Of a DNA stretch of 64,000 nt, positions 9,001 to 51,639 are shown piece after piece. The translations under genes were made by a program, and so were the position numbers. Numbering within the stretch: position 1 is the first letter of the stretch; each line of letters begins with the position of its first letter. Below the pieces are notes generated by a model. It searched no databases and was not told the DNA's origin. It saw only the letters and a program-made list of their open reading frames with translations. Source of the stretch: an uncultured Candidatus Saccharibacteria bacterium (GTDB lineage Bacteria > Patescibacteriota > Minisyncoccia > Phycocordibacterales > UBA918); NCBI GenBank assembly GCA_964618165.1, contig CAZTWW010000001.1, positions 499-64,498 on the forward strand. Direction: 5' to 3'.

Positions 9001-10406
9001 GTAATTACACGAGCGGTGGTGTTGGGTATACGTTCTGGATCCAGAACGGTGCTTGGGATAGCTACACCGTGCGTGGTCGGGCGCCAGTGACACCGCCTGT
9101 CTTCTTTGGGGCCAAGCAGACGGATGGTGGCGCCACTTGGTTAGCAGCTCAAAATGCATCAGGTAGTGGTCTTCCTGGTTCAACTCGTCGACTCCGTATC
9201 GGTATCGAGAACTCAGGTCTCACGGTAACGGGTCAGACCTACCGTCTCCAGTATGCAGCGAAGGGTAGTGCGCTCACGTGTGAAGCTGTCAGTAGTGGTA
9301 GTTACACAGCGGTGCCAAATCAGGCGTCGTGTGGCTCGTCACCGGTTTGTATGCAGACATCAACGAATGTGACTGATGGTGGAGCGACTACAGACCTATT
9401 ATCTGGCATGAATGGGATGTACAGTGCTGGACAGACAGTTGAGAGTCCATCAAACATGACTGGTGGTATTACTATCAATCAAAATTACTACACCGAACTT
9501 GAATATGTAATTACTGCTACCGTGAATGCTTCTGACGCGTACTGCTTTAGAGTCGTGAACGACACTACACCGCTTGACTTCTATGCTGAAGTAGCAGAGC
9601 TTGGTCTAACCTTCGATCCAACTTTTGGACCAGTTGCCCTTAACAATGGTATGCCGATTGTATTAACTCCTGGAGCAACCACGACCGTGTATGCTACCGG
9701 TACAGTCACAGACTTCAATGGTGTGGCAGATCTCGTGGCGGGTACTTCAACCATCTACCGCAGCGGTGCTGGTGCGGCATGTACACCTGATAACAATAAT
9801 TGTTATGTTTCAACAGTCTCAAATGGTGGTTGTAACTTCACAAATTGTAGTGGTTCAACATGTACGCTTGAATGTCGAGCGGATATCTTCTTCCATGCTG
9901 ATCCAACCGACGACGGGGCGTATGCTGGGGAAGAGTGGCTTGCGTACCTTGAGGTGAATGACGTGAGTGGTGGGTATGACTTCGCGTCAGCGCTTGGAGT
10001 GGAACTACTCACATTGCGAGCCTTGACGGTCGATAATGGGATTAACTACGGTGCGCTTGAGCCAGCTAACAACACTGGTGCTTACAACGCAACGACAACG
10101 ATTGCTAACACTGGTAATGTAGCATTTGACATTGAAGTGGCTGGTACTGACCTCAGTGACGGTAGTTCATCGGTCATTCCTGCTACGGAGCAACGATTTG
10201 CAACTTCAACGTTCAACTATGCAGCCTGTGTCAGTTGTGCATCACTTTCAAGTACAACGCCGGTTGAACTAGCGGTCAACCTCGCAAAGCCAACAGCGCC
10301 TTCACCATTACCAGAAACGCCAATCTATTGGGGTATCGCGGTACCGCTCGGTATACGTAGTGCACCGCACTCTGGTATCAACGTCTTTACTCCAATTTCG
10401 CCGTAA
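1..10406 (+). CDS. Giant Thr/Ser-rich cell-surface protein, 5'-partial (at least 3,412 aa). It has beta-helix-like repeats, two DUF2341-like + LamG-like modules, CnaB/CarboxypepD_reg-like modules and a C-terminal WxL-like domain.
   Basis: The frame stays open from nt 3 to the listed start at 168 (a TTG) with no in-frame stop, so the gene continues upstream of the window. Residues are dominated by T/S/G/N with repeated 'NNGE...VGG.F' beta-helix-like units. A DUF2341-like segment 'GWGRRLSITVQSS..DFPVYVNL..GGDIRMT..VFYIYYNNPAA' is followed by a LamG-like segment ending 'GRIDEFRIASVVRTAGW'. The C-terminus is shared with three other proteins in the window. Stop TAA at 10404-10406. Confidence 0.9.
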   Translation, partial: LIHTVNGANELILCGVGACGDARLKIKAGSTYQPLTNSTIINLQNYGRLALGTSTLRVAGAWQQLGTFVTDTSTVVFTATSTPYTLQNATSSFFFHNVTFGETSGTATWTIDKPLSITGTLSVMQGTLARGTSTMAIGGNLTLGANGFVTGIATTTFNGTGSNTWSDAKASASSTNVGNVVIDGTAKTITLAGNVAAESVTIGTDDTLNASGSGFNINVVRAWTNNNLFVPQTGTVTFIGTSTGVIARGTSPFNNLTFAGVGGNWSFSTSTLALNGTLTIATGTVTLPTGTTTIAGSFLNTGGSFAHNNGEVRMTSAVGGRTITQQAGVFTNAFYDLVFTGGGTWSYSESAATTTRNMLIQAGTVTLPSGQLTVGGEFAVTGSGAFAHNNGELVLLVTQTNTLRTNGSALNNVRTRGVGSGSWYGSGWGRRLSITVQSSQVPTNLSDFPVYVNLANLPVEFFNGVKADGGDIRMTTSDGVTEVPVEVVSLNTGARTGELHFRAPSLSSTTNSVFYIYYNNPAAATNTATSTFGRANVWSNGYEAVYHLDTNPASAMLDSTRNARNLTQLGGMNSSDVVAGAVGNGIDFDGVDDRLTNAGFAWPNASNTVTVTAWNNVTVAETKAANLFGFNESGGQRFATHGPWSDSVLYWDFGTAGVPGRVQTAYNSYRDKWTHVALTSPGNGGGNMNIYLDGAFIAGSAASDPTATLTGFFLGSLGAGQYHDGRIDEFRIASVVRTAGWIATEENNQSSSTAFYTVSGEETQRIRTFADTNTTILGNVVLENGGDAIFPSGVLSVGGSFDNNANFTSNNGTVRFNSIAGSETIAAGSSTFATLEFNATSGDFAITEHATATVAVNLVNAASFTLSSGLSLTASGTFTQVMSGASTTWTGSTLRILGADQTIHAKTFGGDVYGTLETNGDTDVAMWNSSATSYVTGSTSSIYSQDHAGVDGDLNIYGNYVRSTGTEHWSWETDFDGVSLGVGARQVDVRIATGSTIGFVNASWSIQGTTSATTTVASIAGAFSVSATNTTVTGRFFSFANTDASGLRLVSSSTVSVLDDGFFTVAPGQTGITMDGTTVGTNPARQFNRIGFATTTAGAASNVTFTGTSTTFVWFRNGSGNLYGEAFDAGDLNPGAIRFDDSSYLITVSGRVLTNNGSGVQGAPVCNGTTPNVRIVVNNGSFTASTSCNATTGAYTFNNVAFVGDPVISVYLNTNGGVQGSVVTKTPTANITNLDLYTNQVMMRHEGVVPIAIADLVQFNNASDTDMGFVATTSPTTTLTVSPARGLFIWASSTFTPGGPVTLAGNASTSAFEGSLTLATSSRFIAEGTQTHTLAGRLVLGSNASITAASSTFVFNATTTGKSITGSTTINLHNASFTGVGGAWNITAPIVFTGDMTVATGTVTGTSNLTLTNGQLTGNGTLSLGGGTTTIARTNTLGGTTPWTFANLVLGDGLTVGTTTRAASATTTISGRLTIANAHTLAATSEAYDFTGTGTVFQVTGTWQPGSSLVRYSGANANVLGTSYYDLSIGALVGSSTFTGTGSGILVGRNLTVGNGTASSTFNVTTSDPVVTVLGDVLIQSSSTLSASDIATTTIAGSYDNNGRFFGNGGLVTFTGSGSHTIAAGSSSLSRVIVDGTGSFTLPESATTTVSLILQNHSLFTVATGTTLAVAGTFENRLGGSATVWSGALFAHGGGSLTINQKTTSDVYSTLRVASTTRVRMWNSTSTVYDAQGGIYSQDHAGIDGALRIYGNFNETSAADHWSFETDFDGTTLGTSTRPVTVAFASNATATWSGGSLSVIGSTSASTTLQNQGSGTYRLVIGGTATVNFNRVVIRDTTAAGITFTGTPTVTDFSRTDHLIRINSGTALTVGGTVINANEAKNFTNNVFAPDTGVIGATNVTATGTAVSSWRFTNHTGSISGEAFDVDPAGDPGYIVWDDSAALITVSGNVYSDEGVTVSPVCDGVTNNIVLRVAGLTSYSTSCNASTGAYSISNVAYSPLDSLVVYIDGATPKGAHVTKSPISSISNLHIYHSRVIVRHENTDPITIADMAVWDSSDDTDIPFTAVDAGTDTLTLPADRKLMVWTSKTFAPNGNVTISGGGAGDAVDGSFEALANARFRGQNSETHTIAGSFVFGAGAVYEANQATTTFTSTAAGRTIDVNESAFGNIAFTGTGSWSMSDATLTTQRSFTQSAGTVTFGSGTTTIGASFNATGGTFTMNGSALVFTSTSTGNIVRFDDSTVPTTTFSGASGAWSMTDTNATTTGSFFITNTGAVTLPSGNLGVGGSFVNASGTVTHNTSDIYFTGAGTLSLRANGSDLFAVRKIGAGTLTMTEGSVTLRDDLAVASGTLIAATNTLAVGGSFTVTNGFFNNATGTVLMNATTVGKTIQASTSPFYNLNFGSASGGWTWQSNATVTNNMTITAANTFTKESGTTLTVGGVFTNLVGGAQTTWSTTTLRLIATDPYTINTKSAGGDVYATVDIPSADIRVWNSSFSTTTTGLGASLYSQDNAAVDGQLAIYGEFTVATTTEHWSFATDFDGTALTGPSQRAVSVLFASSATTSVISGTLNVIGGPSATTTIGIIGTGTHALAVSGGTFNAQFYRFNALNATGLSFTGSPTITTLSNGFYQLAVNGGTLVRVTDTALTANASKIFTAVGFNATSGLSGVNVALVGSTSNAWRFSGSYGTLSGEAFDDDGVDACGAIRFDNSLCLLTSQTAFRWRSDDGLEGAPSSEWFDASFDYRQRVRVQNTTGTSFSTTTLKIVVPYDSAMQSDFDDIRFTLGNGLTLADHWRERFTASTEATFWVEVPSFAASSYTTVFMYYGSSTASSASNASASFVFVDDFEDNNITEYSGDTSLFQTDTAPVFAGTYALEASNKTGRTTDGIYRTGSLVSQGQIVRYMQYVDTTSGSTDEGCVMFGVQGNQNQNYGVCLELFGVDRIALSRDVDDNDVSGTVLASTTVSYTTGWYEVQIDWQTNNRIDVYLYNPSGALVATTSATDSNYTSGGVGYTFWIQNGAWDSYTVRGRAPVTPPVFFGAKQTDGGATWLAAQNASGSGLPGSTRRLRIGIENSGLTVTGQTYRLQYAAKGSALTCEAVSSGSYTAVPNQASCGSSPVCMQTSTNVTDGGATTDLLSGMNGMYSAGQTVESPSNMTGGITINQNYYTELEYVITATVNASDAYCFRVVNDTTPLDFYAEVAELGLTFDPTFGPVALNNGMPIVLTPGATTTVYATGTVTDFNGVADLVAGTSTIYRSGAGAACTPDNNNCYVSTVSNGGCNFTNCSGSTCTLECRADIFFHADPTDDGAYAGEEWLAYLEVNDVSGGYDFASALGVELLTLRALTVDNGINYGALEPANNTGAYNATTTIANTGNVAFDIEVAGTDLSDGSSSVIPATEQRFATSTFNYAACVSCASLSSTTPVELAVNLAKPTAPSPLPETPIYWGIAVPLGIRSAPHSGINVFTPISP
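1264..2270 (+). other. DUF2341-like domain followed by LamG/concanavalin A-like lectin domain (copy 1) inside the giant protein
   Basis: The translated motif is W.GSGWGRRLSI....DFPVYVNL....DGGDIRMT....YIYYNNP, then LDSTRNARNLTQ...GIDFDGVDDRLT...IYLDG...DGRIDEFRIAS. The order matches the known DUF2341 - LamG_3 architecture. Confidence 0.55.
2830..7620 (+). repeat. Three tandem super-repeats of about 2.35 kb (about 790 aa) within the giant ORF
   Basis: The near-identical motif 'HAG[VI]DG.L.IYGN...EHWS[WF]ETDFDG' recurs at nt ~2833, ~5218 and ~7510. CnaB-like segments 'GEAFD..D...I.[FW]DDS..LITVSG.V....GV...PVC.G.T.N' recur at ~3360, ~5760 and ~8070. Confidence 0.7.
8150..9100 (+). other. Second DUF2341-like + LamG-like module inside the giant protein
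   Basis: WRSDDG...WFDASFDYRQRVRVQNTTG...DFDDIRFT...TVFMYYGSS, then FVDDFEDNN...VFAGTYALEA...WYEVQIDW (a jelly-roll-like segment). Confidence 0.45.
9960..10403 (+). other. Shared WxL-like C-terminal domain (copy in the giant protein)
   Basis: The segment ...INYGALEPANNTG...NTGNVAFDIEVAG...IPATEQRFATSTFNYAA...ETPIYWGIAVPLG...SGINVFTPISP aligns with the C-termini of the ORFs ending at 16585, 20845 and 32970. Confidence 0.6.
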
Positions 10407-10415
10407 GAGAGTGCT

Positions 10416-11903
10416 ATGATTACGTTACTTATGCGACATGTACTTGTGTTATTGCTGTTCGTTCTTGGTGGACTGACACTGACTTCGGTCGTATTTGCAC
10501 AATCTGATGACACGCGTGCACCAGAAATTACGGGAGTGACCATCGCCTCAACCACCGAGACTTCAGTGACGATCACCTGGAAAACCAACGAAAACGCTGA
10601 TTCAGCAGTCAATTACAGCCTTGACCCAAATCTCGGCGTGGTACGTGTGCCAGTGGCAAATCGTACGACCCATTCCGTCACATTGGATAACCTCGAGCCG
10701 GGAAGGACGTACTACTTCCGTGTCGTCTCAGCTGATGCCGAGGGTAACCAAGGAATCTCAGCAGATTATAAAATTGATCTTGAAAGTGAAGCGACGAGCG
10801 AAAATAGTGGGGAAGGTACTGGTGTCGGACCAGGTGAGGTGCCACAAACACCCCAAGAAATCATTGAGCAAATTCAAGAAATTAATAATCCGCAACAACT
10901 TCAAGAGATTCTTAATGAGACCGTAAAGGCGATTCAGGGTATTACTGAGGATTTGACCATTGTCGGTCCGCCAACCGTTGTGCCGGAGACAACCTCAGCC
11001 CTGGTCTCATGGAGTACTGACCGACCAGCTAGTTCAGAGGTGCGATTCTCTAAAACTAATGGTTTTGATGGTACTAATTATGAATTTTCTCAATCATCCA
11101 CCGACGGTTCAGTTACTGACCACGAAATTCGTCTCATCGGCCTTGAGCCATTTACTGAGTATAGTTTTCAGGTACGTTCAACAGATGAGTATCAGATAAC
11201 TGGTGAAAGTCGTAACTTTACCTTCCGCACTAAAGCATCGCTTCCTGACATTCGAAATCTCCGTATCGTGAAGGTGGAGGAAAACGCAGCGACACTTGCC
11301 TGGGAAACGACGGTACCAGCCAAAGCGCTCATCGAATATCAGGATCTGACCACTGGTGGTCAAAACTCAGTCGGCCGCCCAACGCTCGCTACAACACACC
11401 AAATGCGCCTCTCAGACCTGACGCTAGGAACACGCTATGTTGCGTTTGTAATTGCTGAAAACTCTGGCGGGGACCGTGTTCGGAGTCAGCCGGTTCAATT
11501 CATTACGGTCCGTGATAATGCACCGCCACTTATCTCAAACGTGACAAACGAATCAACTATTTTCCCTGGTGGTGAATCGCGTATTCAGACAATTGTTGAG
11601 TGGAATACCGACGAACCAGCATCTTGTACGATGACCTATCGTGAAGGTGTAGCTGGTGGTGTTGATCCGGTTGTGCTTGAGAAAGAGGTGGTTGAGTACA
11701 ACACGAATCATGTTGAGGTAATTATCGACTTTGCTCCCGCGACTGTATACCAGTTTTGGCTTAATTGTACTGATGAAGCCGGCAATACTGTCCAGTCTGA
11801 GAACTTCGTACTCTTTACCCCAATTCAAGAAAAAAACATTATCGACTTGATCTTGGAGAACTTTGAGTCGACGTTTGGTTGGGTTAAAAACATCACAAAC
11901 TAG
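10416..11903 (+). CDS. Secreted protein with four fibronectin type III-like repeats (495 aa)
   Basis: N-terminal signal peptide LLLFVLGGLTLTSVVFA. Repeated units of the form 'P.I..V.....T.T.A.I.W.T...A.S.V.Y......Y.......H.V.L..L.P.T.Y.FRV.S.D..GN'. An acidic Q/E-rich linker lies between repeats 2 and 3. Confidence 0.8.
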   Translation: MITLLMRHVLVLLLFVLGGLTLTSVVFAQSDDTRAPEITGVTIASTTETSVTITWKTNENADSAVNYSLDPNLGVVRVPVANRTTHSVTLDNLEPGRTYYFRVVSADAEGNQGISADYKIDLESEATSENSGEGTGVGPGEVPQTPQEIIEQIQEINNPQQLQEILNETVKAIQGITEDLTIVGPPTVVPETTSALVSWSTDRPASSEVRFSKTNGFDGTNYEFSQSSTDGSVTDHEIRLIGLEPFTEYSFQVRSTDEYQITGESRNFTFRTKASLPDIRNLRIVKVEENAATLAWETTVPAKALIEYQDLTTGGQNSVGRPTLATTHQMRLSDLTLGTRYVAFVIAENSGGDRVRSQPVQFITVRDNAPPLISNVTNESTIFPGGESRIQTIVEWNTDEPASCTMTYREGVAGGVDPVVLEKEVVEYNTNHVEVIIDFAPATVYQFWLNCTDEAGNTVQSENFVLFTPIQEKNIIDLILENFESTFGWVKNITN

Positions 11904-11922
11904 AACTATTTCACTGACACAT

Positions 11923-11959
11923 TTCTTTGTTGTGCTTTAAAAATTTTGTTCACCGTACA
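11923..11959 (+). repeat. Conserved post-gene element TTCTTTGTTGT-N-GTTCACCGTACA (copy 1)
   Basis: An element of about 38 nt lies 20 nt after the stop of the Fn3 gene. A near-identical copy is at 18764-18802, after the dockerin gene. Confidence 0.6.
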
Positions 11960-12116
11960 ACATGTACGACTTACAAAATTTTTCTTGCATGCCTCGAACT
12001 GCATCCAGTGTAAAAGTTCTAGATGGTAGTTGTCAAAGGTGTAAACACAAGCATGGCGTAGTTTTGTATGTGGACTACACTCCAAAGTATTCACGAAGTA
12101 ATGCCATAATACAGAC

Positions 12117-13439
12117 ATGGCAAAGCCTCTCATTGTGTGCCGTGATTTGTCGATTATTTATAATAAAGGCAAATCCAATGAATTTCGTGCGCTCCAAAAC
12201 GTAAACACCGACATCTATGAAGGTGAGTATATTATTCTGTTTGGTGCATCTGGGTCGGGCAAGTCAACACTCATGTATTCGATTCAAGGATCACTCCCGC
12301 CGGGCGAGGGGACGCTCCTTATTCGTGGTGACGATATTTACTCGTATCCACCGAGTGAACGAGTGTACTTCCAGCGGTACGTGATGGGTATTATCTTCCA
12401 ATCCTTTAACCTGATTGGCTCACTCTCGGTGCTCGATAATGTCGCGCTCCCGATGATTTTTTGTAATGCTGACAAACAAACGCGCGATCGTCGCGCACAG
12501 TCACTCCTTGATCGCTTCGGCGTGGGGCATGTCTCTCATAAGATCCCAGCGATGCTCTCCGGTGGCCAGCAACAGCGTGTCTCGGTAGCACGCTCTATGG
12601 TGAATGATCCGAAGATTCTTCTTGCAGACGAGCCAACCGGTAACCTTGACTCCGTTTCTACCCAGCAGGTGATGGACAAAATTGACGAAATTAACACGTT
12701 CGATAGACGGACTATTATTATGGTATCGCACAACGCGGCTCATTTGTCATACGCACATCGCGTATATTACCTCAAAGATGGGGCGGTCGTGCGTGAAGTG
12801 GTGAATCCGCAACGCAAGCAGATTAAACCAGTCCGTGAAGGTGAGACCATTGTAACCGAGTTAGAGCAGCTCGCGCGCCTGTTTCCGTACGACTCAGTTG
12901 ATACGCTGCGTATCAAGAGTATGGTGAATTACTTAACTCAAGATTATACCTTTGACCAAATTCAGCGCCTTGAGCGTGCCATTGGCTTCTTTATCAAGGG
13001 TAAGATTGACCGTGATGCATTTATAAACGCGCTCGTCCTTCCGCTCGAGCGCGGGGGAGTAGAAATAGACGAAAATACCGCGCGTGAGATGGCGAAGCGC
13101 ACTGAGCGCATGATTCTCCAGTCTGATGACATCAGACGTTTTCGAGCAAAAAAAGACAATGACGGGGTCTTCTTTAGTCAGCATAAGCTCGCTGAGCGAC
13201 TTCGTGATCACCTCCTTGAGGTATATCGCCTCAAGCTCTCAAAAGAGCAAGATAATAATCTTGTAGAACTGGTTGCAGACCGTGTGACGGGTGTGACTGA
13301 TAGTGCGGAGTTTAATGTCCGACTCATGAACGGGGTTCGCAGTGGCGGCTTGGCTCTTACCGAAGGCGAAGCAGATGATATGACAAGATACTTTGAAAAG
13401 CTGATTGCCCAAGGGGTAGACGTCAGTTATAAAAATTAG
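12117..13439 (+). CDS. ABC transporter ATP-binding protein (MacB/LolD-type NBD) with a C-terminal extension of about 200 aa of unknown function
   Basis: Walker [11 protein letters not shown]-loop, ABC signature [14 protein letters not shown], Walker B LLADEPT and H-loop VSHN are all present. The ABC domain is about 230 aa of the 440 aa total. Confidence 0.9.
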
Positions 13440-13442
13440 TGT

Positions 13443-14651
13443 ATGCGTGTCCAGGATCTTGCTCAGCTTTCAACTCGAATGTTTAAGACGAACCCGCTTC
13501 GTACCTGGCTTACTATTCTTGGTATGGGAGTCGGGACGGGTGCGGTAGTTATTCTCGTCGGGCTTGGATTCGGGCTTCAGCAGATCATTCTTGAGCAGAT
13601 TGTGTTCGGTGAGACACTCCTCTCACTTGGTGTATCAGCCACCGGCGCGCAAAATCTCCGCCTTACTACCGAGACCGTCACGCAATTTGAAGAAATGCCA
13701 GAGGTTCTCGACGCTGCTCCGCTGGCACGCTTCCCGGCCCTCGTAACCTATAAGGGGCTGACTGGTAACGTGTTTATTCAAGGAGTAGAACCACCATACC
13801 TTCGGTATGCTGGTGTTTCCGCGACTGCTGGTGAGGTATTTACCGATGTTGATGCAGCTGATACCAGCAGTGTAATGCTGTCGCCGGCGGTATTAAAGCT
13901 CTTCGGGATTGAAGACGCAGAGAGTTTTGTGGGGGAGAAGGTGTCATTTCGTATACTCATTCCGGCAAATGATGGTACCGGCAACAACAACGAGGTGATT
14001 ATCGATAAAGAGTATACCGTTCGGGGTATCACGAAGGAGGAAGGTGTCCTTAATGCCATGATGATGCTCCCTGAACTCCGTAATTATGTTGGTATTGAGG
14101 AATTTGAGCGTATTCAGGTCCGTGTCGATACGAATGAAAATCTACCGATTGTCGAGACAAAGCTTATTGAGGAAGGGTACCGCGTGACTGCGCTCTCAAA
14201 GACTGTTGAACAGGCGTCAAAGATTTTCCAGGGTATTCAAGCAGTTTTGGCGACATTTGGTGGTATTGCCTTAGTGGTGTCGGCGATTGGTATGTTTAAC
14301 ACGATGACGGTGACACTCCTTGAGCGTACCAAAGAGATCGGTATTATGCGTACTATTGGTGCTTCTCCGAACGATGTAAAGTATCTCTTCGTGTCTGAGT
14401 CGGTAGTGGTAGGCTTTTTGGGTGGGGTGAGTGGGATAGTTATGGGGGTAGGACTTGGACTCACTATCAATCTTTTTTTGAATATTGTGGCGGGGCAGTT
14501 CGGTGGGCAAGCGGTAAAGCTCTTTTCATTCCCACTTGGGTTCTTGCTCTTCATTGCCCTCTTCTCAGCGGCGGTGGGGTACTTGACCGGTATCTTCCCA
14601 GCTCGTCGGGCCGCCAAGCTCAACCCGCTTGATGCGATTCGCTACGAATAA
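13443..14651 (+). CDS. ABC transporter permease, FtsX/MacB-like (402 aa)
   Basis: Starts 4 nt after the ATPase stop. It has an N-terminal TM helix, an extracytoplasmic domain of about 230 aa and three C-terminal TM helices, which is the FtsX/MacB topology. Confidence 0.8.
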   Translation: MRVQDLAQLSTRMFKTNPLRTWLTILGMGVGTGAVVILVGLGFGLQQIILEQIVFGETLLSLGVSATGAQNLRLTTETVTQFEEMPEVLDAAPLARFPALVTYKGLTGNVFIQGVEPPYLRYAGVSATAGEVFTDVDAADTSSVMLSPAVLKLFGIEDAESFVGEKVSFRILIPANDGTGNNNEVIIDKEYTVRGITKEEGVLNAMMMLPELRNYVGIEEFERIQVRVDTNENLPIVETKLIEEGYRVTALSKTVEQASKIFQGIQAVLATFGGIALVVSAIGMFNTMTVTLLERTKEIGIMRTIGASPNDVKYLFVSESVVVGFLGGVSGIVMGVGLGLTINLFLNIVAGQFGGQAVKLFSFPLGFLLFIALFSAAVGYLTGIFPARRAAKLNPLDAIRYE

Positions 14652-14710
14652 GTCTGTGCATAACTAGTGCATAACTGTCGTACCCTCCTATAAAATAAAG
14701 AGGTAAACGT

Positions 14711-16585
14711 ATGTTGTACAACAAAAATAATCTACCGCGGTATGTAGAGACCGCCGGTAAAATCACCATTTTATCAGCCTTAACTGGAGTATTGATTTTC
14801 ACCTTCATCTTTATTCTTAACATCGGTAAAACCGAGCTCCAGAAAGCCGAAGCGACATCAACCGCGACGACTACTCTCACTGTTCTTAACACGCCCCCAC
14901 AGTGGGAGATTGGTGAAGAAGGTCGTGAAGAGTTTGGTTCTTCCACGACCACACCAACTAACTCAGGTGATGTTGTCTCTTGGATTGGTCGAGCCACTGA
15001 CTCAAACGGCGCACCTTACTTCCTTATCATTTGTAGTAATAGTGCGACACCAACAGCTCAGCAGTCCACGACAACACTCGGAACCGCAGCGCCGATTTGT
15101 TCTGGCGGCGGTATCCGCTGGGCCGTTTCAACTTCTACCGTGAGTGGTGCACAGGCGCGTGCTGCTACAACCACGTTTGAAGGTGGTAACTTCCAGGAAT
15201 CTAATACCTGGTACGCCTGGGTGTGTGACGACGATCCGGTGAGTCCAAAGTGTAGTACAACATTCTCTCAGGGAACCAACGCCACGAACTCAAGTCCTTT
15301 TAACGTAAATCGTAGACCAATCTTCACCACTTTTGGTAATAATGGACCTGTTAATCCTGGCGGTACCATTACCTTCAATGCTACGGCAACCGATCCAGAC
15401 ATTGTAGACTTTGAAGATAATATTTACCTTGTTGTCTGTAGCCTTCCTTCATACAGTACAACCACGAACTCATGTGGTGCAGGAGACTTCATTGCCTCAA
15501 GTTCTCTCGGCGCCCTTCAAAATCCTACCGCTGCAACGAGTCTCGTAGCTATCATTCAGGACACGAGTTACAACGCCTATGGTTATGTCTATGACGAGCA
15601 TGGACACGAGGCACTGCTTGGAGCCCAGGGTACCAATACACCGTTTGTAGTTAATAACGTAGCACCAACAGTTTCGGGAGGTACTATTACACTTAATGGC
15701 GGTCTTGATATTACCCTCACAACACCTGGGGCGGAAACAACTGGCTTTACGCTCGAGTTCACTATCGCTGATGCAAATAGTTGTGATGCGGTCGGTGGTG
15801 GGCCTGCGGATGAGATTATTCGTCCGGTCGTCTCGATATTTAGAAGCTCACTAGGTACAACAACCTGTAACGGAGCTTTAGCTTACGATCCGAATCGCTG
15901 TTATGTAAGTGATGTTCCTACTTCTGTCTGGAATCTCGCATGTACAGCCTCTACCACCTCGTGTACCGGAGCGACTGATGATACGATTCAATATAATTGT
16001 ACGTTCCCACTTTGGTTCCTCGCTGATCCTACTGATGCAAGTTCACCATTTTCAGCTGAAGACTGGCGTGCTGGTGTAGCTGGAGTTGATGACGACCTTT
16101 CGACCGGTACAATGGCAACGTCGACGAGCGGACGAGAGCTCTTCAGTTTTGTAGCAATTGACTTGTTAACGCAAAACATTGCCTATACTGACCTTGAGCC
16201 TGGAACTGAGATGGCTAACTTGACTTCGTCTTCAACGCTTCGTGTGCTCGGTAACACCGGTATCAACCAGCTCCTCGGCGGAGATTCAATGTGTGACACC
16301 TACAGCATCAGTAATCCATGTCCTGTTTCGGGTACGTCAACTATTCCTCAAAGTGAGCAACGCTACGCAACTACAGCAGTAGCGTACGCAGCTGGTACAC
16401 CGCTTCAGCCTACTTCTACACCAGCACTGTTTGACATCCGTATCCCAAAACCAACTTCGACTTCAAGTCCGACACAGGATGAAACGTTCTGGGGTATCCG
16501 AGTTCCAGGTTCAATTACACGCGCGGGAGTATATACAGGTCGAAACACCTTTATGGGTGCGGTATCACCATCAGGAAGCTGGTAA
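14711..16585 (+). CDS. Secreted Thr/Ser-rich surface protein (624 aa) with the shared WxL-like C-terminal domain
   Basis: SD AAGAGG precedes the ATG. N-terminal signal anchor ILSALTGVLIFTFIFIL. The C-terminus '...IPQSEQRYATTAVAYAAG...ETFWGIRVPGS...GVYTGRNTFMGAVSP' is homologous to the C-termini of the 3,412-aa, 385-aa and 2,048-aa proteins. Confidence 0.8.
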   Translation: MLYNKNNLPRYVETAGKITILSALTGVLIFTFIFILNIGKTELQKAEATSTATTTLTVLNTPPQWEIGEEGREEFGSSTTTPTNSGDVVSWIGRATDSNGAPYFLIICSNSATPTAQQSTTTLGTAAPICSGGGIRWAVSTSTVSGAQARAATTTFEGGNFQESNTWYAWVCDDDPVSPKCSTTFSQGTNATNSSPFNVNRRPIFTTFGNNGPVNPGGTITFNATATDPDIVDFEDNIYLVVCSLPSYSTTTNSCGAGDFIASSSLGALQNPTAATSLVAIIQDTSYNAYGYVYDEHGHEALLGAQGTNTPFVVNNVAPTVSGGTITLNGGLDITLTTPGAETTGFTLEFTIADANSCDAVGGGPADEIIRPVVSIFRSSLGTTTCNGALAYDPNRCYVSDVPTSVWNLACTASTTSCTGATDDTIQYNCTFPLWFLADPTDASSPFSAEDWRAGVAGVDDDLSTGTMATSTSGRELFSFVAIDLLTQNIAYTDLEPGTEMANLTSSSTLRVLGNTGINQLLGGDSMCDTYSISNPCPVSGTSTIPQSEQRYATTAVAYAAGTPLQPTSTPALFDIRIPKPTSTSSPTQDETFWGIRVPGSITRAGVYTGRNTFMGAVSPSGSW

Positions 16586-16605
16586 AGGTATCGAGACATA
16601 GTTTC

Positions 16606-16648
16606 TGCAATGACCACCGTTATCCAAACGGTGGTCATTGCTTTTTAT
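16606..16648 (+). terminator. Intrinsic terminator after the 624-aa gene
   Basis: Hairpin GCAATGACCACCGT-tatccaa-ACGGTGGTCATTGC followed by TTTTTAT. Confidence 0.7.
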
Positions 16649-16677
16649 CAATAAGTTTTCGATAATAGAGGGACTGC

Positions 16678-17631
16678 ATGAAGGGAATTCTTCAAACGTC
16701 GCTACTACGTTCTTTGTGTTTGGTTGTTTTGTCGACAGTGGTCTTTTGGCCTGCCACAACTTTTGCCAGCTTTGGTATTACGCCTCCTTATGTACGCAAT
16801 ACGAGCCTGACCCGCAACTCTACCTACGAGCAGCAAATTCTTTTAGTACGGGGGAATCCTAACGAAGACCTGCGCGCAGAAATTACTATTGATGCACCAG
16901 AGATTCAGGACTGGATTGAGGTGGTAGAAGGAAACAATATCTCACTCCCTCGTGGTGAACAGAAGGTGCCAATGACCGTTCGTATTAAGGTCCCGGCAGA
17001 CGCAGACTTTGCAGACTACATGGGTAAGATCCGTATCCGTACGCTTCCAACTGATGAGGCTGCGGCTGAGGGTGTGGTGAGTATTAGTCTTGGTGCGCAG
17101 GTTGATATTGATCTATCAGTTATCGATAAGGTAATCGAAGATTTTCGAGTTCGAAAAATTACTATTAACGATCTCAATGAAGGTCGTAAGCTCGGCTGGC
17201 TCTATTTCCCGGGTAAGATTAATTTCGGCATGCTGATTGAGAATACCGGTAATGTTGACATCGCGCCGTCTAAGGTTGAGTTCCGCATCTATGACCGAGC
17301 TGGAGCCGTTCTCCTTGAGACCACCGAGCATACCGGCCGCATCAAAAAGATTGCTCCGTATGCGATTGAAGAGGTGACTGCTAATCTGCCCACTCGTCTT
17401 CCGGCCGGTAGTTACATTGCTCGTTACTCAATCTTTAATGGAGATGAGGTTAAGCAGGAAGGTGAGCTTAATTTGAGTATTCTTCCATACGGTACACTCC
17501 AGACTGCCGGGTACGGCTTCATGGGGCTCTCAATTGCGCATAAAGTATCTATCCTATTACCAATCTTTGCGCTTCTCATAACTATTCTGTACATTATCCA
17601 TAATCGACGCAGTCGTAAGACGCGAGCGTAG
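16678..17631 (+). CDS. DUF916-like cell-surface protein (317 aa) with N-terminal signal peptide and C-terminal TM anchor plus basic tail (paralog 1)
   Basis: SD GAGGGA precedes the ATG. Signal peptide LCLVVLSTVVFWPATTFA. The C-terminal TM helix ILLPIFALLITILYII is followed by HNRRSRKTRA. It is paralogous to the ORFs at 32972 and 33933. The architecture matches DUF916/WxL-interacting proteins. Confidence 0.7.
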   Translation: MKGILQTSLLRSLCLVVLSTVVFWPATTFASFGITPPYVRNTSLTRNSTYEQQILLVRGNPNEDLRAEITIDAPEIQDWIEVVEGNNISLPRGEQKVPMTVRIKVPADADFADYMGKIRIRTLPTDEAAAEGVVSISLGAQVDIDLSVIDKVIEDFRVRKITINDLNEGRKLGWLYFPGKINFGMLIENTGNVDIAPSKVEFRIYDRAGAVLLETTEHTGRIKKIAPYAIEEVTANLPTRLPAGSYIARYSIFNGDEVKQEGELNLSILPYGTLQTAGYGFMGLSIAHKVSILLPIFALLITILYIIHNRRSRKTRA

Positions 17632-17635
17632 ACAT

Positions 17636-18742
17636 ATGCTCAGTCGCTTATTCTTCATTGGTATCGTACTCTTGGTGCCACCATTCACTGTATTTGGTCA
17701 GGAGATCTACACTGCCACTACTACTATTAATCTCAGTATCTGTGGTAATAACGTGGTTGATACTGGTGAACAGTGTGATGTGCCGGGTGAGACCGGTCTA
17801 TACAGTACGACTATTGCTGGGCGACAGTGTAACGCACGGTGTGATTATGGTCCGTATTGTGGTGACGGGATTCTCCAGACTACATTTGGCGAAGAGTGTG
17901 ATGACGCGAATAATGACAGTGGTGACTTTTGTTCGGCTACCTGTACGATAGAGCCTGCTGGTTCTGGTGGAGGCGGTAGTTCTGGCGGTGGATCGGGTGG
18001 TGGTGGTTCAACCCGTGACTTAGGGGACACCTCAATTAGCGTGACCGGTCTTGGGTATCCAAATCAGCAGATCAATTTTCTCCTTGATACGAGAGCGGTA
18101 GGTTCCGTGCGGGCAAATAGCACTGGTCGTTTTGAATTTTCGACTAAAGCTTCTCCTGGTACCGCAACACTCGGTGTCTGGGCAAATGACTCAACTGGTG
18201 TTCGTTCAATTACGCTCAATAACACCTTTGATGTGACACAAGGTGCAGTGACTAATGTTAATGGACTTTTATTGCCGCCAACGTTGACACTCTCAAACAA
18301 TAAAGTTAGCCCTGGCAGTACGGTGACGATTAGTGGTCAAGCCGTTCCAAGTGCTCAGATTGAAATCCAGGTAGGAAACAGTAGTCTTCGCACGGAACGG
18401 ACGACGAGTGACGCAACGGGTCGCTATACGTTCCAGTTAAATACCTCCACGCTCCGTAATGCCGAGTATCCGATAAAAGCGCGATCAATCACTGGTACCG
18501 CGCCACTCCTCACGCAAAGTGGATATAGCTCGATTGCACAGCTATTTGTTGGTGTTGATGGTGCGCCGAGTTCACCGTCTGACTTGAGTCGAGACGGTAA
18601 GGTAAATCTCACCGACTTTTCGATTCTGATTTTCTGGTGGCAATCGGCCGGAGGTGATTCAAATCCGCCAGCTGATATCAATGGTAACGGTCGGGTGGGG
18701 TTGGAGGATTTTTCTATTCTCCTCTTCAACTGGACCGGCTAG
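17636..18742 (+). CDS. Secreted protein with Myxococcus-type Cys-rich repeats (DUF4215-like), Gly/Ser linker, Ig-like region and C-terminal dockerin-like domain (368 aa)
   Basis: Signal peptide. Cys-rich repeats CGNNVVDTGEQCD... and CGDGILQTTFGEECDDANNDSGDFCSATCTIE. Linker GSGGGGSSGGGSGGGGS. Two C-terminal dockerin repeats, DLSRDGKVNLTDFSILIF and DINGNGRVGLEDFSILLF. Confidence 0.75.
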   Translation: MLSRLFFIGIVLLVPPFTVFGQEIYTATTTINLSICGNNVVDTGEQCDVPGETGLYSTTIAGRQCNARCDYGPYCGDGILQTTFGEECDDANNDSGDFCSATCTIEPAGSGGGGSSGGGSGGGGSTRDLGDTSISVTGLGYPNQQINFLLDTRAVGSVRANSTGRFEFSTKASPGTATLGVWANDSTGVRSITLNNTFDVTQGAVTNVNGLLLPPTLTLSNNKVSPGSTVTISGQAVPSAQIEIQVGNSSLRTERTTSDATGRYTFQLNTSTLRNAEYPIKARSITGTAPLLTQSGYSSIAQLFVGVDGAPSSPSDLSRDGKVNLTDFSILIFWWQSAGGDSNPPADINGNGRVGLEDFSILLFNWTG

Positions 18743-18763
18743 AGTCTATTAATTACCTCCATC

Positions 18764-18802
18764 TTCTTTGTTGTACTTCGGTAAATTGTCGTTCACCGTA
18801 CA
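18764..18802 (+). repeat. Conserved post-gene element TTCTTTGTTGT-N-GTTCACCGTACA (copy 2)
   Basis: Lies 22 nt after the stop of the dockerin gene. It aligns with 11923-11959. Confidence 0.6.
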
Positions 18803-19647
18803 GGAAGTACGCCTCACAACAATTTCCTCGTACGCCTCGAATCTGGGGCCACTTACTTGACTCTAAGTGTTACAATGGCGAATTTTCGCGAGTGAGGCCT
18901 ATTCCTAATGGCCTCGTCCGCGTCTCTGCCTTACCTCGCACTCTACCAGTAGGGACTATTGCGAATTCTCGCGAGTAATGCGACCCCCAAGGGAGTATTA
19001 TCCTCGTACTACCACTTTGTTTCTTAGATTACTATCTGTCCGCCTCGAATACAGGGGTATTTAGTGGAGTCTAAACTCGTGACTTAACTTTTGATAGGTT
19101 CGCTATCTTTTGTAACATCGACAGCGAAAGGCGTAGTAGTGACGGAAGGAGAGTGTCACTAGTAATCACCGACGTCATTTTTGTGAGGGGTGGTGATAAT
19201 GGCCGAAGCAGAAGTCTAATACTCCATAATTTCTCATAAAATGCTTTTCAAGTTGTGTCGCTCTAGTACAAATGACGGGATTGAAACGCTGTTACTGGTC
19301 ACGAATGGTCGACACTTTCTATTTCCTAAAATGAGAAAAAATTTCATAATCTAACCTTTCTACTGGCAAAATATATGCACTGCGTAAATCCTCACTATTC
19401 TCTCGTGTAGTTAAAAATATTTTTGTGTATAAGTTTCCGTTTCGTAACCTCTATCAAGCTAGAATGAATAAGTACTAATGTTGGAGGTATCTCTTTAATG
19501 ATACTGCTAGCTCCCACCACGGAATGCTAGGGCACAACAGCCAGTGTTACGGCATTAGTATGCCTGTCACTCACTATGGGGAAGTGGGGTGGAGACCACA
19601 CCTCTGAGCGATGCAGGGTCGCGCTGTGCGTTGTTGTACTCAATTAT

Positions 19648-19675
19648 TTGATATACAACAGTGCCAGGCTAATAC
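19648..19675 (+). promoter_or_regulatory. Candidate sigma70-type promoter for the 385-aa gene
   Basis: TTGATA, 16-nt spacer, TAATAC, then 12 nt to the ATG at 19688. Confidence 0.35.
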
Positions 19676-19687
19676 AACGTAGAGAAC

Positions 19688-20845
19688 ATGAGTAGAACGA
19701 ATTCAACGTTCGGACTACTCCAAGCAGTGGCCTTTGTAGTTGGCCTTGCGATTCTTATTTGGTCGCTTGGTTTACCTGCATTCCGTTTTGCGGAGGCCGC
19801 AAATGTCAGATTAGTCAGTGATACACTGTCGGATTCAGCACCAAGTGTGCCATCAAATCACACCATCTCATTTGTTACACCATCAGGTGTTGCAAACGGT
19901 GAATCTATTGTTATCAACTTCTCAGAAGGACCGTTTGTCCTCGGGGCAGTCGCATTTGATGACGTAGACATTCGTGATGATGGAACGGATCTGTCAGTGG
20001 CAGCAGGTTGTGGTGGCACTGAAGAAGTTGGGTTTTCAACCTCTACCAATCAGATCACCCTTCAGTTTTGTCCTGGCGACGGGGCTTCATTACCTGCAAA
20101 TGGTACAACCACTATTGAGATCGGAACCAACGCCACCTTTGGTGCAACTGGTAACGCTCAGCTCACTAACCCTGGTGTAGGCTCATACGAGATCAACATC
20201 ACGGCTGGTTCGCAGGATAGTGGTGCTACGCGAGTAGCTATCATTTCTCCAGTTGTCGTTACTGCTGCTGTCGATACGAGCTTTACCTTTACGGTAGCTG
20301 GTCTCGGTGGTACAGGTGATGTCAACTCGGAGCCGATCACTGGTACGAGTACCGCTACTACCATTCCGTTTGGTACATTGACTGCGAACACTGCATCAAC
20401 TGCAGCACAGCAGCTTTCAGTGGCCACCAACGCAAGTTACGGATTTGCAGTAACGGTACAGGTTGATCAGCAACTGCTCTCATCAACTGGTGCTGACATT
20501 GACGGATTTATCGATGGTGCCTACACGTCAACTCCGGTTGCGTGGCAACCACCATCTGGTTCAATTAGTAATGAGAATTCATGGGGTCACTGGGGTATTA
20601 CCACAGAAGACGCCACGCTCACTGCTGGTTTGACCGACCCATTCAATGCGAGTTCAACCGGGCAGCTCTTCGTATCTGCCTCGACAACCCCAGTTGAAGT
20701 GTTTCGACACAATGGTCCATCTGACGGTACTACCGCTAATATCGGCCGTACCCGCGTTGGATACAAGGTTGAAATTTCACCGCTACAAGAAGCCGGTGAT
20801 GACTACAATGCAACGCTGACATACGTTGCGACACCAGTGTTCTAG
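19688..20845 (+). CDS. Secreted protein (385 aa) with the shared WxL-like C-terminal domain
   Basis: N-terminal hydrophobic signal LLQAVAFVVGLAILIWSLGLPAFRFAEA. The C-terminus '...TIPFGTLTAN...WGHWGITTEDATLTAG...RTRVGYKVEISP...DDYNATLTYVATPVF' is shared with the other three surface proteins. Confidence 0.8.
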   Translation: MSRTNSTFGLLQAVAFVVGLAILIWSLGLPAFRFAEAANVRLVSDTLSDSAPSVPSNHTISFVTPSGVANGESIVINFSEGPFVLGAVAFDDVDIRDDGTDLSVAAGCGGTEEVGFSTSTNQITLQFCPGDGASLPANGTTTIEIGTNATFGATGNAQLTNPGVGSYEINITAGSQDSGATRVAIISPVVVTAAVDTSFTFTVAGLGGTGDVNSEPITGTSTATTIPFGTLTANTASTAAQQLSVATNASYGFAVTVQVDQQLLSSTGADIDGFIDGAYTSTPVAWQPPSGSISNENSWGHWGITTEDATLTAGLTDPFNASSTGQLFVSASTTPVEVFRHNGPSDGTTANIGRTRVGYKVEISPLQEAGDDYNATLTYVATPVF

Positions 20846-51563: not shown

Positions 51564-51639
51564 GGGCCTGTAGCTCACTTGGTAGAGCGCCTCATTTGCA
51601 CTGAGGAGGCAGCGGGTTCGAATCCTGTCAGGTCCACCA
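51564..51639 (+). tRNA. tRNA-Ala (anticodon TGC)
   Basis: Cloverleaf: acceptor stem GGGCCTG/CAGGTCC with G3:U70, D-arm GCTC-ACTTGGTA-GAGC, anticodon stem CCTCA/TGAGG with loop TTTGCAC, T-arm with TTCGAAT loop, encoded CCA 3' end. Confidence 0.9.

What the first reader, a model, noticed from the sequence alone, without database searches (positions are those of the whole stretch)
11923..18802. Conserved 38-nt element immediately downstream of two surface-protein genes
After the Fn3 gene the sequence is TTCTTTGTTGTGCTTTAAAAATTTTGTTCACCGTACAACATGTACGAC. After the dockerin gene it is TTCTTTGTTGTACTTCGGTAAATTGTCGTTCACCGTACAGGAAGTACGCC. Both start about 20 nt after the stop codon, share TTCTTTGTTGT and GTTCACCGTACA cores, and precede unusually long non-coding stretches (213 bp and 945 bp). 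This could be a transcript 3'-end processing or stability element, a protein-binding site or the 5' end of an sRNA.
Basis: seen in the sequence. Interest (0 to 1): 0.5.

Follow-up and report, generated by a model that had tools for sequence, protein, structure and literature searches.

The report
Stop-codon hairpin repeat of Paceibacteria
The two look-alike 38-nt stretches are the cores of a conserved, roughly 125-nt hairpin that starts at the stop codon of many unrelated genes in a group of ultra-small bacteria, has been kept by selection, and matches no catalogued RNA family.

Summary
Both motif copies are where stated, and none is expected by chance. The unit is larger than reported: a 120-135-nt imperfect hairpin on the gene strand, whose base overlaps the upstream stop codon.

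I found about 20 non-identical copies in Paceibacteria/Patescibacteria genomes. They follow nine different genes: Fn3, DUF4215-dockerin, ABC ATPase, FtsX, a 630-aa protein, ftsA, hisS-like, brkB-like and RNR. All are co-oriented with the upstream gene.

- **Structure:** stems covary (18 of 23 core pairs change on both sides; 92% paired against 27-48% in slid controls). G·U outnumbers A·C 44 to 17, so the sense strand folds.
- **Selection:** the core is 90-95% identical between genomes whose four-fold degenerate sites are saturated (33-40%).
- **Presence:** other relatives have short empty spacers at the same junctions.
- **Not a terminator:** it has no T-run, and in one relative it lies upstream of a canonical terminator.
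- **Not catalogued:** no Rfam family matches.

Best reading: a selected 3'-UTR RNA hairpin, REP/ERIC-like in lifestyle, probably protein-recognised, that protects or processes mRNA 3' ends. A selfish REPIN-like repeat is the main rival. Function is inferred, not shown.

The parts
10416..11903 (+). Host gene of copy A (Fn3 / purple-acid-phosphatase-N-like surface protein). Its TAG stop (11901-11903) is paired in the base of the hairpin.
   Evidence: ORF list, Pfam, fold.
11900..12022 (+). Copy A, full hairpin (123 nt). Outer stem about 11900-11916 with 12006-12022. P1a TTC 11923-11925 with GAA 11996-11998. P1b 11931-11935 with 11987-11991. P2 11939-11949 with 11973-11983. 4x4 loop TCAC/ACTT. 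P3 CGTAC 11954-11958 with GTACG 11964-11968.
   Evidence: Inverted repeats. MFE -36.1 kcal/mol with outermost pair 3 nt inside the stop codon. z = -3.25 for the inner 96 nt.
11921..12000 (+). Copy A, conserved core matched by the covariance model.
   Evidence: R2 gives 92.3 bits, E = 2.5e-22. The reverse strand scores only 21 bits.
12102..12110 (+). Promoter-like extended -10 (TGCCATAAT) ending 6 nt before the ATG of the ABC gene (12117). It places copy A upstream of the next gene's promoter, in the 3' UTR of the Fn3 gene.
   Evidence: Read from the sequence. The same TGTGTCATAAT-about-10-nt-ATG arrangement occurs in relatives. The promoter function is inferred.
17636..18742 (+). Host gene of copy B (DUF4215 / Big_7 / dockerin protein). 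Its TAG stop (18740-18742) is paired in the base of the hairpin.
   Evidence: More than 1,700 homologues, one named by NCBI as from Candidatus Paceibacteria.
18738..18868 (+). Copy B, full hairpin (131 nt). Outer stem 18738-18746 with 18859-18868. P0b CCTCCA 18755-18760 with TGGGG about 18844-18848. Then the core helices as in copy A.
   Evidence: Orthologous copies in L007, L008, L014 and L003 are 90-95% identical in the core.
18762..18843 (+). Copy B, conserved core.
   Evidence: R2 gives 100.3 bits, E = 1.7e-24.
19011..19074 (+). Decayed partial third copy. It keeps a CTTTGTT-like 5' motif and a 3' arm GTCCGCCTCGAATACAGGGG...GGAGTCTAA, and lacks the apical P2-P3 part.
   Evidence: Direct repeat 19038-19074, 73% identical to 18830-18866. 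R2 E = 3.1. The region has no significant fold (z = -0.14).

Best explanation
The two sites are members of an old, dispersed family of about 125-nt structured elements in Paceibacteria (Patescibacteria/CPR).

**Proposed mechanism.** Each copy is transcribed as the start of the 3' UTR of the gene it follows. It folds on the sense strand into one long irregular hairpin:
- a variable outer stem of about 20 bp whose first pairs include the stop codon;
- a 3-bp UUC/GAA helix;
- a conserved 5x4 internal loop (UUYGU / CCUC);
- a 5-bp helix, then a variable 10-11-bp helix;
- a conserved 4x4 loop (UCAC / NCUC);
- an almost invariant CGUAC/GUACG helix with a variable cap.

I propose it acts at the RNA level as a 3'-end structure. 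It would be a barrier to 3'-to-5' exonucleases, a defined processing site for a double-strand-specific nuclease, or both. The two similar pyrimidine-rich internal loops and the invariant apical helix would be the recognition surface for a still unknown protein. Because the base of the helix contains the stop codon, each terminating ribosome must open it, which could couple translation to the fate of the mRNA.

**Shown:** the family exists; the sense strand folds; stems covary; the position at the stop codon is fixed; there is purifying selection at the locus; and the element is neither a canonical terminator nor a catalogued RNA.

**Inferred:** that it is transcribed; the stabilising or processing role; and the protein partner.

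The confidence of 0.45 applies to the full mechanistic statement. That it is a selected, sense-strand structured element I put at about 0.85.
For: - **Not chance:** 2 exact matches in the window, 0 expected.
- **Family:** copies found by pattern scans and by the covariance model R2. There are 24 hits (23 distinct), all on the gene strand.
- **Fixed position:** in 15 copies folded with their flanks, the outermost pair lies -6 to +4 nt from the end of the stop codon and the hairpin spans 119-135 nt in 13 of them (143 and 149 nt in L021_Fn3 and L023_ABC). The third base of the stop codon covaries with its partner (TAG with CTA, TAA with TTA).
- **Covariation:** 92% of cells are paired against 27-48% when partners are slid. 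18 of 23 pairs change on both sides, and 0 of 500 shuffles reach this.
- **Folding strand:** G·U/U·G 44 against A·C/C·A 17. R2 scores 92-100 bits on the + strand against 18-21 bits on the - strand.
- **Locus-level selection:** the core is 90-95% identical among the window, L007, L008 and L014. Four-fold degenerate sites of the adjacent gene are 33-40% identical, against 26% expected by chance, and the spacer just downstream cannot be aligned. Orthologous copies show compensatory changes in the outer stem (CCTCCA/TGGGG against ACCCTA/TAGGGT).
- **Age:** copies within one genome are as diverged as copies between genomes (51-78%), so the family is old rather than a recent burst.
- **Placement in the 3' UTR:** in L018 the order is stop, element, canonical terminator, promoter, next gene. 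In L010 the element sits between convergent genes, attached to the upstream one. Copy A lies upstream of a promoter-like TGCCATAAT that ends 6 nt before the next ATG.
Against: - There are no expression data, so transcription, 3' ends and cleavage are all untested.
- ssDNA hairpins also tolerate G·T, so the strand asymmetry does not separate RNA from single-stranded DNA.
- Relatives L017 and L019 have short empty spacers at the same junctions, L024 has no model match there although its Fn3 and ABC spacers are 177-182 nt, and L015 has a decayed copy. The element is therefore dispensable at any one locus.
- Homologous copies after unrelated genes must have spread somehow, and another small repeat (family 3) is inserted inside some copies at a fixed point. 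Both fit a mobile-element ecology.
- Nearly all sampled genes lie on one strand, so orientation relative to transcription cannot be separated from orientation relative to replication.
- The A7 alignment was fitted to the model, which inflates the pairing counts somewhat.
Confidence: 0.45

Rival explanations
1. A selfish, non-autonomous palindromic repeat (REPIN-, PATE- or MITE-like). It would be mobilised as single-stranded DNA by a transposase encoded elsewhere. It would be tolerated only right at stop codons, because the short spacers are otherwise filled by promoters. It would have no host function.
For: - It is a dispersed homologous family after unrelated genes.
- Orthologous junctions are filled in some relatives and empty in others.
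- It forms mosaics with other repeat families in the same spacers, and family 3 is nested inside it.
- Many copies are bracketed by TA...TA.
- Strand bias could reflect replication-strand-specific ssDNA insertion.
- Spacers in relatives are 26-63 nt, with a -10 box about 10 nt before the ATG. That leaves little room except at the stop codon.
Against: - The outer arms are not conserved in sequence and instead covary, the opposite of transposase-bound terminal inverted repeats.
- Copies within a genome are only 51-78% identical.
- Orthologous copies are 90-95% identical where synonymous sites are saturated, which a neutral insertion cannot explain.
- There is no conserved GTAG, and no transposase or integrase domain in any ORF I scanned in the window or loci (and the Pfam columns).
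- There were 0 hits in viral contigs.
Confidence: 0.2
2. An unconventional, factor-dependent transcription terminator or insulator that stops read-through from one gene into the next gene's promoter.
For: - It sits between the stop codon and the next promoter.
- In L010 it fills the gap between convergent genes.
- Each gene in the cluster appears to have its own near-leaderless promoter, so insulation would be useful.
Against: - No copy has a T-run after it.
- The same organism uses textbook terminators: 16607-16641, a 15-bp stem followed by TTTTT, conserved in all relatives.
- In L018 a canonical terminator follows the element in the same spacer, which would make the element redundant as a terminator.
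Confidence: 0.15
3. A translation-linked regulator. By sequestering the stop codon in a stable helix it would slow termination or ribosome recycling, or trigger stalling and rescue, and so tune the output of the upstream gene. This is what has been reported for E. coli REP sequences within about 15 nt of a stop codon (from my own knowledge: Liang, Rudd and Deutscher 2015).
For: - The helix base lies -6 to +4 nt from the stop codon in 15 of 15 folded copies.
- The third base of the stop codon covaries with its pairing partner.
Against: - The conserved internal loops and the invariant apical helix are not needed for a simple steric effect.
- In a compact genome, stop-codon pairing may only mean that the helix extends as far as coding constraint allows.
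- No data bear on protein output.
Confidence: 0.1
4. A double-stranded DNA binding site (operator-like palindrome) for a dimeric regulator.
For: The arms CGTAC...GTACG form an inverted repeat with invariant sequence.
Against: - The spacing between the half-sites varies from 3 to 6 nt.
- The long stems covary rather than keeping their sequence.
- The strong G·U over A·C asymmetry and the strand-specific model scores point to a folded single strand.
Confidence: 0.03

Closest known systems
REP / BIME / REPIN elements of proteobacteria
   Same: Dispersed extragenic hairpin repeats placed just after genes, often in mosaics with other motifs. They are known (from my own knowledge) to stabilise upstream mRNA and, when close to a stop codon, to affect translation. 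They are present or absent between relatives.
   Different: REPs are 20-40 nt with a conserved GTAG, occur in tens to hundreds of near-identical copies, and are tied to a RAYT transposase. Here the unit is about 125 nt with no GTAG. Copies are 51-78% identical within a genome. Conservation sits in internal loops while stems covary. No RAYT was seen, although whole genomes could not be searched.
ERIC/IRU (enterobacteria) and Correia/NEMIS (Neisseria) elements
   Same: Imperfect palindromes of about 100-150 nt in transcribed intergenic regions that fold into long RNA hairpins. They are reported (from my own knowledge) to be RNase targets that change the stability of flanking mRNA. Their size (ERIC is about 127 nt) and TA-flanked ends look alike.
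   Different: Those families keep a whole-length consensus with conserved terminal inverted repeats and occur in both orientations. Here the terminal arms vary and covary, orientation is uniform, and the start is fixed at the stop codon.
Phage T7 RNase III processing sites and chloroplast 3' inverted repeats
   Same: This is the closest functional analogy for the proposed mechanism. They are intercistronic or 3'-UTR hairpins with a conserved internal loop, which define and protect mRNA 3' ends rather than terminate transcription (from my own knowledge).
   Different: There is no sequence relation. Cleavage or protection has not been tested for this element.
Intrinsic (Rho-independent) terminators
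   Same: A hairpin directly after a gene.
   Different: It has no U-tract, is 3-4 times longer, has conserved loops, and coexists with a canonical terminator in the same spacer.
Integron attC sites
   Same: A structure-conserved, sequence-variable hairpin starting at the stop codon of a cassette gene and folded from one strand.
   Different: It has no RYYYAAC/GTTRRRY core sites in the right places and no integrase among the ORFs I scanned with Pfam. Its host genes are core housekeeping genes in conserved synteny (ftsA-ftsZ, hisS), not cassettes.

Membership tests
Any Rfam 15 RNA family | A covariance-model match at the gathering score, or any match at E <= 10 | tested here: not met
   At the gathering score the window gives only tRNA-Ala. 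E-value scans of both sites give only noise (mir-1294 E = 3.4; snR31 E = 2.2). Seven related loci give nothing.
Intrinsic terminator | A GC-rich hairpin followed directly by a U/T-run | tested here: not met
   No T-run follows any copy. The scan of 10300-20000 reports a canonical terminator at 16607-16641 but none at the elements. In L018 a canonical terminator lies downstream of the element.
MITE (for example IS630/Tc1-derived) | Terminal inverted repeats conserved in sequence among copies | tested here: not met
   The outer arms differ between sites (GAAC.., GAGTC.., GTGTC.., TCTGG.., AGCTT..) but stay complementary.
MITE (for example IS630/Tc1-derived) | Target-site duplication (TA) flanking the element | tested here: inconclusive
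   Many copies read TA[..]TA, but this equals pairing of the stop codon with the 3' arm. L014 and the hisS copy lack it. Empty sites are too diverged to reconstruct.
MITE / REPIN | Many near-identical copies within a genome (recent amplification) | tested here: not met
   The five copies in L018 are 51-73% identical to each other. Window copies A and B are 73% identical. Only partial genomes were sampled.
MITE / REPIN | Filled and empty states at orthologous sites | tested here: met
   L018 has copies after five consecutive genes and L023 after three. L017 and L019 have 26-103-nt spacers at the same junctions, without a copy. The lineages compared are saturated at synonymous sites, so these are old gains or losses.
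REP / REPIN | Conserved 5' GTAG tetranucleotide and an associated RAYT (Y1 transposase) gene | tested here: inconclusive
   GTAG is not conserved; the 5' context is CTAG, GTAG, ATAG, TTAG, CTAA or TTAA. No transposase domain was found in the ORFs I scanned or in the Pfam columns. Whole genomes could not be searched.
Integron attC | R''/R' core sites (RYYYAAC ... GTTRRRY) and a nearby IntI integrase | tested here: not met
   The ends carry no such boxes in the required order (sequence). No integrase domain was found in the window ORFs I scanned with Pfam. Host genes are syntenic core genes.
Structured RNA (generic criterion) | Compensatory base changes that keep the helices, above controls | tested here: met
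   18 of 23 pairs change on both sides, 87 such cells, 92% paired against 27-48% when slid, and 0 of 500 shuffles reach this. The independent MAFFT alignment gives 91% paired against 28-47%.
RNase III-type processing site / 3'-UTR stabiliser | Cleavage or a protected 3' end mapped in vivo or in vitro | not testable with these tools
   No transcriptome or biochemical data are available here.

The most novel reading that the evidence does not exclude
This is a previously undescribed RNA class specific to Patescibacteria. It would be a protein-recognised (or possibly self-processing) 3'-UTR module that sequesters the stop codon and sets mRNA 3' ends, in organisms whose RNA-decay machinery is almost unstudied. 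It would sit within a small ecosystem of at least three unannotated structured repeat families that occupy the same post-stop-codon slots and insert into one another at fixed points.
Probability: 0.25. Interest if true: 0.75.

Novelty: new variant of a known kind. Interest (0 to 1): 0.55.

Why it matters
Patescibacteria (CPR) make up a large share of bacterial diversity, yet almost nothing is known about how they end, process or stabilise their transcripts. Their genomes are usually described as streamlined and poor in repeats. This element combines three things: nucleotide conservation far above synonymous sites, clear covariation, and a fixed position at the stop codon of both housekeeping and surface-protein genes. 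That makes it a concrete, testable handle on post-transcriptional control in these organisms, through metatranscriptome 3'-end mapping, RNase assays and protein pull-downs. It is also a marker for annotating gene ends. The neighbouring repeat families and their nested insertions suggest an undescribed layer of small mobile or modular RNA elements in these tiny genomes.

Tried and rejected
- **Chance repeat:** rejected (and relatives).
- **Known RNA family:** no Rfam match at the gathering score or at E <= 10.
- **tRNA or tmRNA-like:** ARAGORN finds only tRNA-Ala at 51564.
- **Coding extension or read-through peptide:** the frame after the TAG of copy A stays open for 41 codons. The shared motif is in a different frame in copy B, which hits TAA after 13 codons (read from the sequence). 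Rejected.
- **TAG-specific recoding (PYLIS-like):** TAG is the commonest stop in the window (19 of 39), and copies after TAA exist. Rejected.
- **DGR target hairpin:** the host genes include ftsA, hisS and RNR, and their C-termini are unrelated. Rejected.
- **CsrA site:** the GGA in the apical loop of copy B is not conserved in other copies. Rejected.
- **K-turn or hammerhead-like cores:** I compared them by eye with the conserved loops and found no match, and no Rfam ribozyme hit.
- **Phage origin:** 0 hits in viral contigs.
- **More diverged copies in the window:** models R1 and R2 with filters off find only the two copies and a decayed remnant.
- **L012 from the metagenome scan:** a GC-rich chance match inside coding DNA, not recognised by R2.
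- **Literature:** searches for the motif strings, and for Patescibacteria combined with REP, MITE or REPIN, found nothing relevant.
- **RNAalifold register UUYG/CGAA for P1a:** replaced by UUC/GAA, which shows double changes.


Full report
**1.

The gapped pattern TTCTTTGTTGT-N(10-20)-GTTCACCGTACA matches the window exactly twice, at 11923-11959 and 18764-18802, both on the + strand. None of 100 dinucleotide-preserving shuffles contained a match.

The upstream ORFs are an Fn3/purple-acid-phosphatase-N protein (10416-11903) and a DUF4215/Big_7/dockerin protein (17636-18742). The following spacers are 213 and 945 nt.

Aligning the two sites shows that similarity runs over about 80 nt at 85% identity. 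It ends in a second shared block, CGCCTCGAA. Each site is also bracketed by a long inverted repeat whose 5' arm starts at the stop codon: 11895-11916 with 12006-12027, and 18740-18766 with 18839-18865.

**2. Anatomy**

Every copy folds into the same irregular hairpin:
- **P0:** outer stem of about 20 bp, variable in sequence, including the stop codon.
- **P1a:** a 3-bp helix UUC/GAA, separated from P0 by a 1-2-nt loop on each side.
- **First internal loop:** conserved, 5' UUYGU against 3' CCUC.
- **P1b:** 5 bp.
- **Junction:** short and variable.
- **P2:** 10-11 bp, variable in sequence.
- **Second internal loop:** conserved 4x4, UCAC against NCUC.
- **P3:** CGUAC/GUACG, almost invariant.
- **Cap:** 3-6 nt, variable.

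The two internal loops resemble each other. The 23-sequence consensus is acUuCuUuGUug..AaanunnnnuUCAcCGUACaa.naaGUACGnCUcac...CUugnncgcCu.c.GaA.

**3. Related copies elsewhere**

- **Genome collection.** L007 and L008 follow orthologues of the dockerin gene. L009 lies between ftsA and ftsZ.
- **Metagenome scan.** A scan with the 3' half of the motif found four more real copies: L010 after a brkB-like gene and facing a convergent gene; L011 after a class II ribonucleotide reductase; L013, an orthologue of site A; and L014, an orthologue of site B. L012 is a chance hit in GC-rich coding DNA.
- **Covariance model.** Model R2, built from 11 copies, found a second copy in L009 right after a hisS-like gene. 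It found no further intact copy in the 64-kb window.
- **Syntenic relatives.** The dockerin protein has more than 1,700 homologues, one of which NCBI names as from Candidatus Paceibacteria. I fetched eight syntenic loci spanning 66-84% protein identity. R2 finds five copies in L018, one after each of the Fn3, ABC, FtsX, 630-aa and dockerin genes. It finds three in L023, one in L021 and one in L022, and none in L015, L017, L019 or L024.
- **Empty and altered sites.** At the same junctions L017 and L019 have spacers of only 26-103 nt. L015 carries a decayed copy after the dockerin gene and a different repeat family after the other genes.

In total there are 24 hits (23 distinct), at nine different gene junctions. 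All are on the strand of the upstream gene.

**4. Position**

I folded 15 copies with their flanks. The outermost pair lies between -6 and +4 nt from the last base of the stop codon. The hairpin spans 119-135 nt, apart from two copies where the MFE adds extra outer pairs.

The core starts 17-25 nt after the stop codon in all but one copy, where it starts at 32 nt. The partner of the third stop-codon base changes with it: TAG pairs with CTA, and TAA with TTA. TAG itself is not special. It is the commonest stop in the window, at 19 of 39.

**5. It is a folded single strand, the sense strand**

- On the model-independent MAFFT alignment of 11 copies, 91% of pair cells are standard pairs, against 28-47% when partners are slid.
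- On the 23-sequence alignment, 18 of 23 pairs change on both sides, 87 cells do so, and 92% are paired. No shuffle in 500 reaches this. That alignment is fitted to the model, so the figures are somewhat generous.
- The UUC/GAA register for P1a shows double changes (UAC/GUA, UGC/GCA, GCC/GGC). The alternative register proposed by RNAalifold does not.
- G·U/U·G cells outnumber A·C/C·A cells 44 to 17. One U·G pair is present in 17 of 23 copies.
- R2 scores 92-100 bits on the + strand and 18-21 bits on the - strand.

This rules out a duplex-DNA operator. It does not by itself separate RNA from single-stranded DNA.

**6. It is under purifying selection at the locus**

Between the window and L007, L008, L015 or L017, four-fold degenerate sites of the dockerin gene are 29-40% identical. 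For the ABC gene the figure is 32-40%, and 26% is expected by chance. Neutral sites are therefore saturated.

Even so, the 82-nt core at the dockerin site is 90-95% identical among the window, L007, L008 and L014. The outer stems differ by compensatory changes. The spacer immediately downstream cannot be aligned.

Copies within one genome are as diverged from each other (51-78%) as copies in different genomes. The family is therefore old, and each copy is maintained. It is not a recent burst of a selfish repeat.

**7. What it is not**

- **Not catalogued:** no Rfam 15 family matches at any threshold I tried. No tRNA-like gene is present.
- **Not a canonical terminator:** no copy has a T-run. 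The organism has a textbook terminator at 16607-16641, conserved in all relatives. In L018 the order is stop, element, canonical terminator, promoter, next gene. That places the element inside a 3' UTR.
- **Not a leader of the next gene:** copy A lies upstream of a promoter-like TGCCATAAT that ends 6 nt before the next ATG. In L010 the downstream gene is convergent.
- **Not a classic MITE, REP or attC:** the terminal arms are not conserved in sequence, there is no GTAG or attC core box, and the ORFs I scanned show no transposase, integrase or reverse-transcriptase domain.
- **Not phage-borne:** no hit in viral contigs.

**8. Most likely mechanism, and rivals**

The evidence shows a selected, sense-strand, stop-codon-anchored hairpin with sequence-specific loops. 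That is the signature of a protein-recognised RNA structure in a 3' UTR.

By analogy with REP stabilisers, ERIC and Correia hairpins, T7 RNase III sites and chloroplast 3' inverted repeats (all from my own knowledge), I propose that it protects or defines the 3' end of the upstream mRNA. Because the stop codon is in the helix, it may also link that to translation. This step is inferred.

The main rival is a REPIN-like selfish repeat moved as ssDNA. In its favour:
- homologous copies sit after unrelated genes;
- relatives differ in which junctions are filled;
- another small repeat is nested inside some copies.

That rival does not explain the locus-level conservation or the covarying, non-conserved termini. 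The two views can be combined: an element that once spread and was then retained for a host function.

**9. Novelty**

The kind of element is known: dispersed extragenic hairpin repeats at gene ends. This family is not in Rfam, and I found no paper that links Patescibacteria to such repeats. Its strict start at the stop codon, uniform orientation, loop-centred conservation and strong selection make it a distinct variant.

Noticed in passing
window 18866-18945 (+); also L015 after 3522, 5184 and 6815; L021 5072-5484 and 6692-7060; L022 11110-12029: A second unannotated repeat family ('family 2'): ACAATGGCGAATTTYCGYGAG - stem - CCTATTCCTAATGG - stem - TCCRCGTCTCTC. The window copy lies directly after element B and folds with z = -3.7. 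In L015 it occupies the same post-stop-codon slots that family 1 fills in other genomes. No Rfam match.
   Followed up: partly
L018 8829-8919 and about 11190 onward; L023 about 6460-6700; L021 about 5225-5345; L015 about 3630 onward: A third repeat ('family 3'): TTCTTACAGAAGCTGTCCACTCATT ... AATGAGTCTTGCGAAA - hairpin - CTCAC. It is inserted inside family-1 copies at one fixed point, between the 3' strand of P1b and CCTCGAA, and both halves of family 1 are still present. It is also inserted inside the loop of family 2 (CCTATT|...|CTCATGCC). This looks like site-specific insertion just 5' of CCTMR. It is absent from the window.
   Followed up: partly
window 19420-19690 (+): A promoter-like TTTGTGTATAAGTTTC followed by a leader of about 230 nt before the 385-aa gene (19688). 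The block is conserved (long identical runs in the alignment) in L007 and L008 although synonymous sites are saturated and the middle of the spacer cannot be aligned. It is a candidate structured leader or small RNA. No Rfam hit at E <= 10.
   Followed up: partly
window 16607-16641 (+): A canonical intrinsic terminator (15-bp stem GCAATGACCACCGTT.../...AACGGTGGTCATTGC followed by TTTTT) after the 624-aa gene. It is conserved at the same place in all eight syntenic relatives.
   Followed up: yes
window 12102-12119; L017 about 5790-5806; L019 about 5705-5722; L021 and L023 spacers: Extended -10-like boxes (TGTGTCATAAT or TGCCATAAT) end only 6-13 nt before the ATG of the ABC and FtsX genes. Each gene may therefore have its own promoter and a leaderless or near-leaderless mRNA.
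   Followed up: no
L022 3970-4140: The last 32 nt or so of the Fn3 gene (TTTGGTTGGGTTAAGAATATMACAAAYTAR) are duplicated on both sides of an insert of about 125 nt. The insert carries a GGTTCCAGAACTTTC... hairpin and a canonical terminator. The old stop codon and its family-1 copy are displaced about 130 nt downstream. Similar GTTCCAG...CTGGAAC hairpins occur after the dockerin gene in L019 and L023.
   Followed up: no
window 19011-19074 (+): A decayed partial family-1 copy inside the 945-nt spacer. It keeps the 3' arm and the CGCCTCGAA block and has lost the apical part.
   Followed up: partly
window 18700-18742, against L007 and L008: The last seven codons of the dockerin gene (CTC CTC TTC AAC TGG ACC GGN) are identical at synonymous sites in three genomes, while all six codons before them differ. 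The constrained region may extend about 20 nt into the coding sequence.
   Followed up: no
window 168-35564 and the syntenic loci L015-L024: A conserved gene cluster found across all the syntenic Paceibacteria relatives fetched (66-84% identity). It encodes a giant 3,400-7,800-aa DUF2341 protein, then Fn3, MacB-type ABC/FtsX, DUF4215-dockerin, cohesin and another protein of about 2,050 aa. It resembles a cell-surface, cellulosome-like assembly.
   Followed up: no
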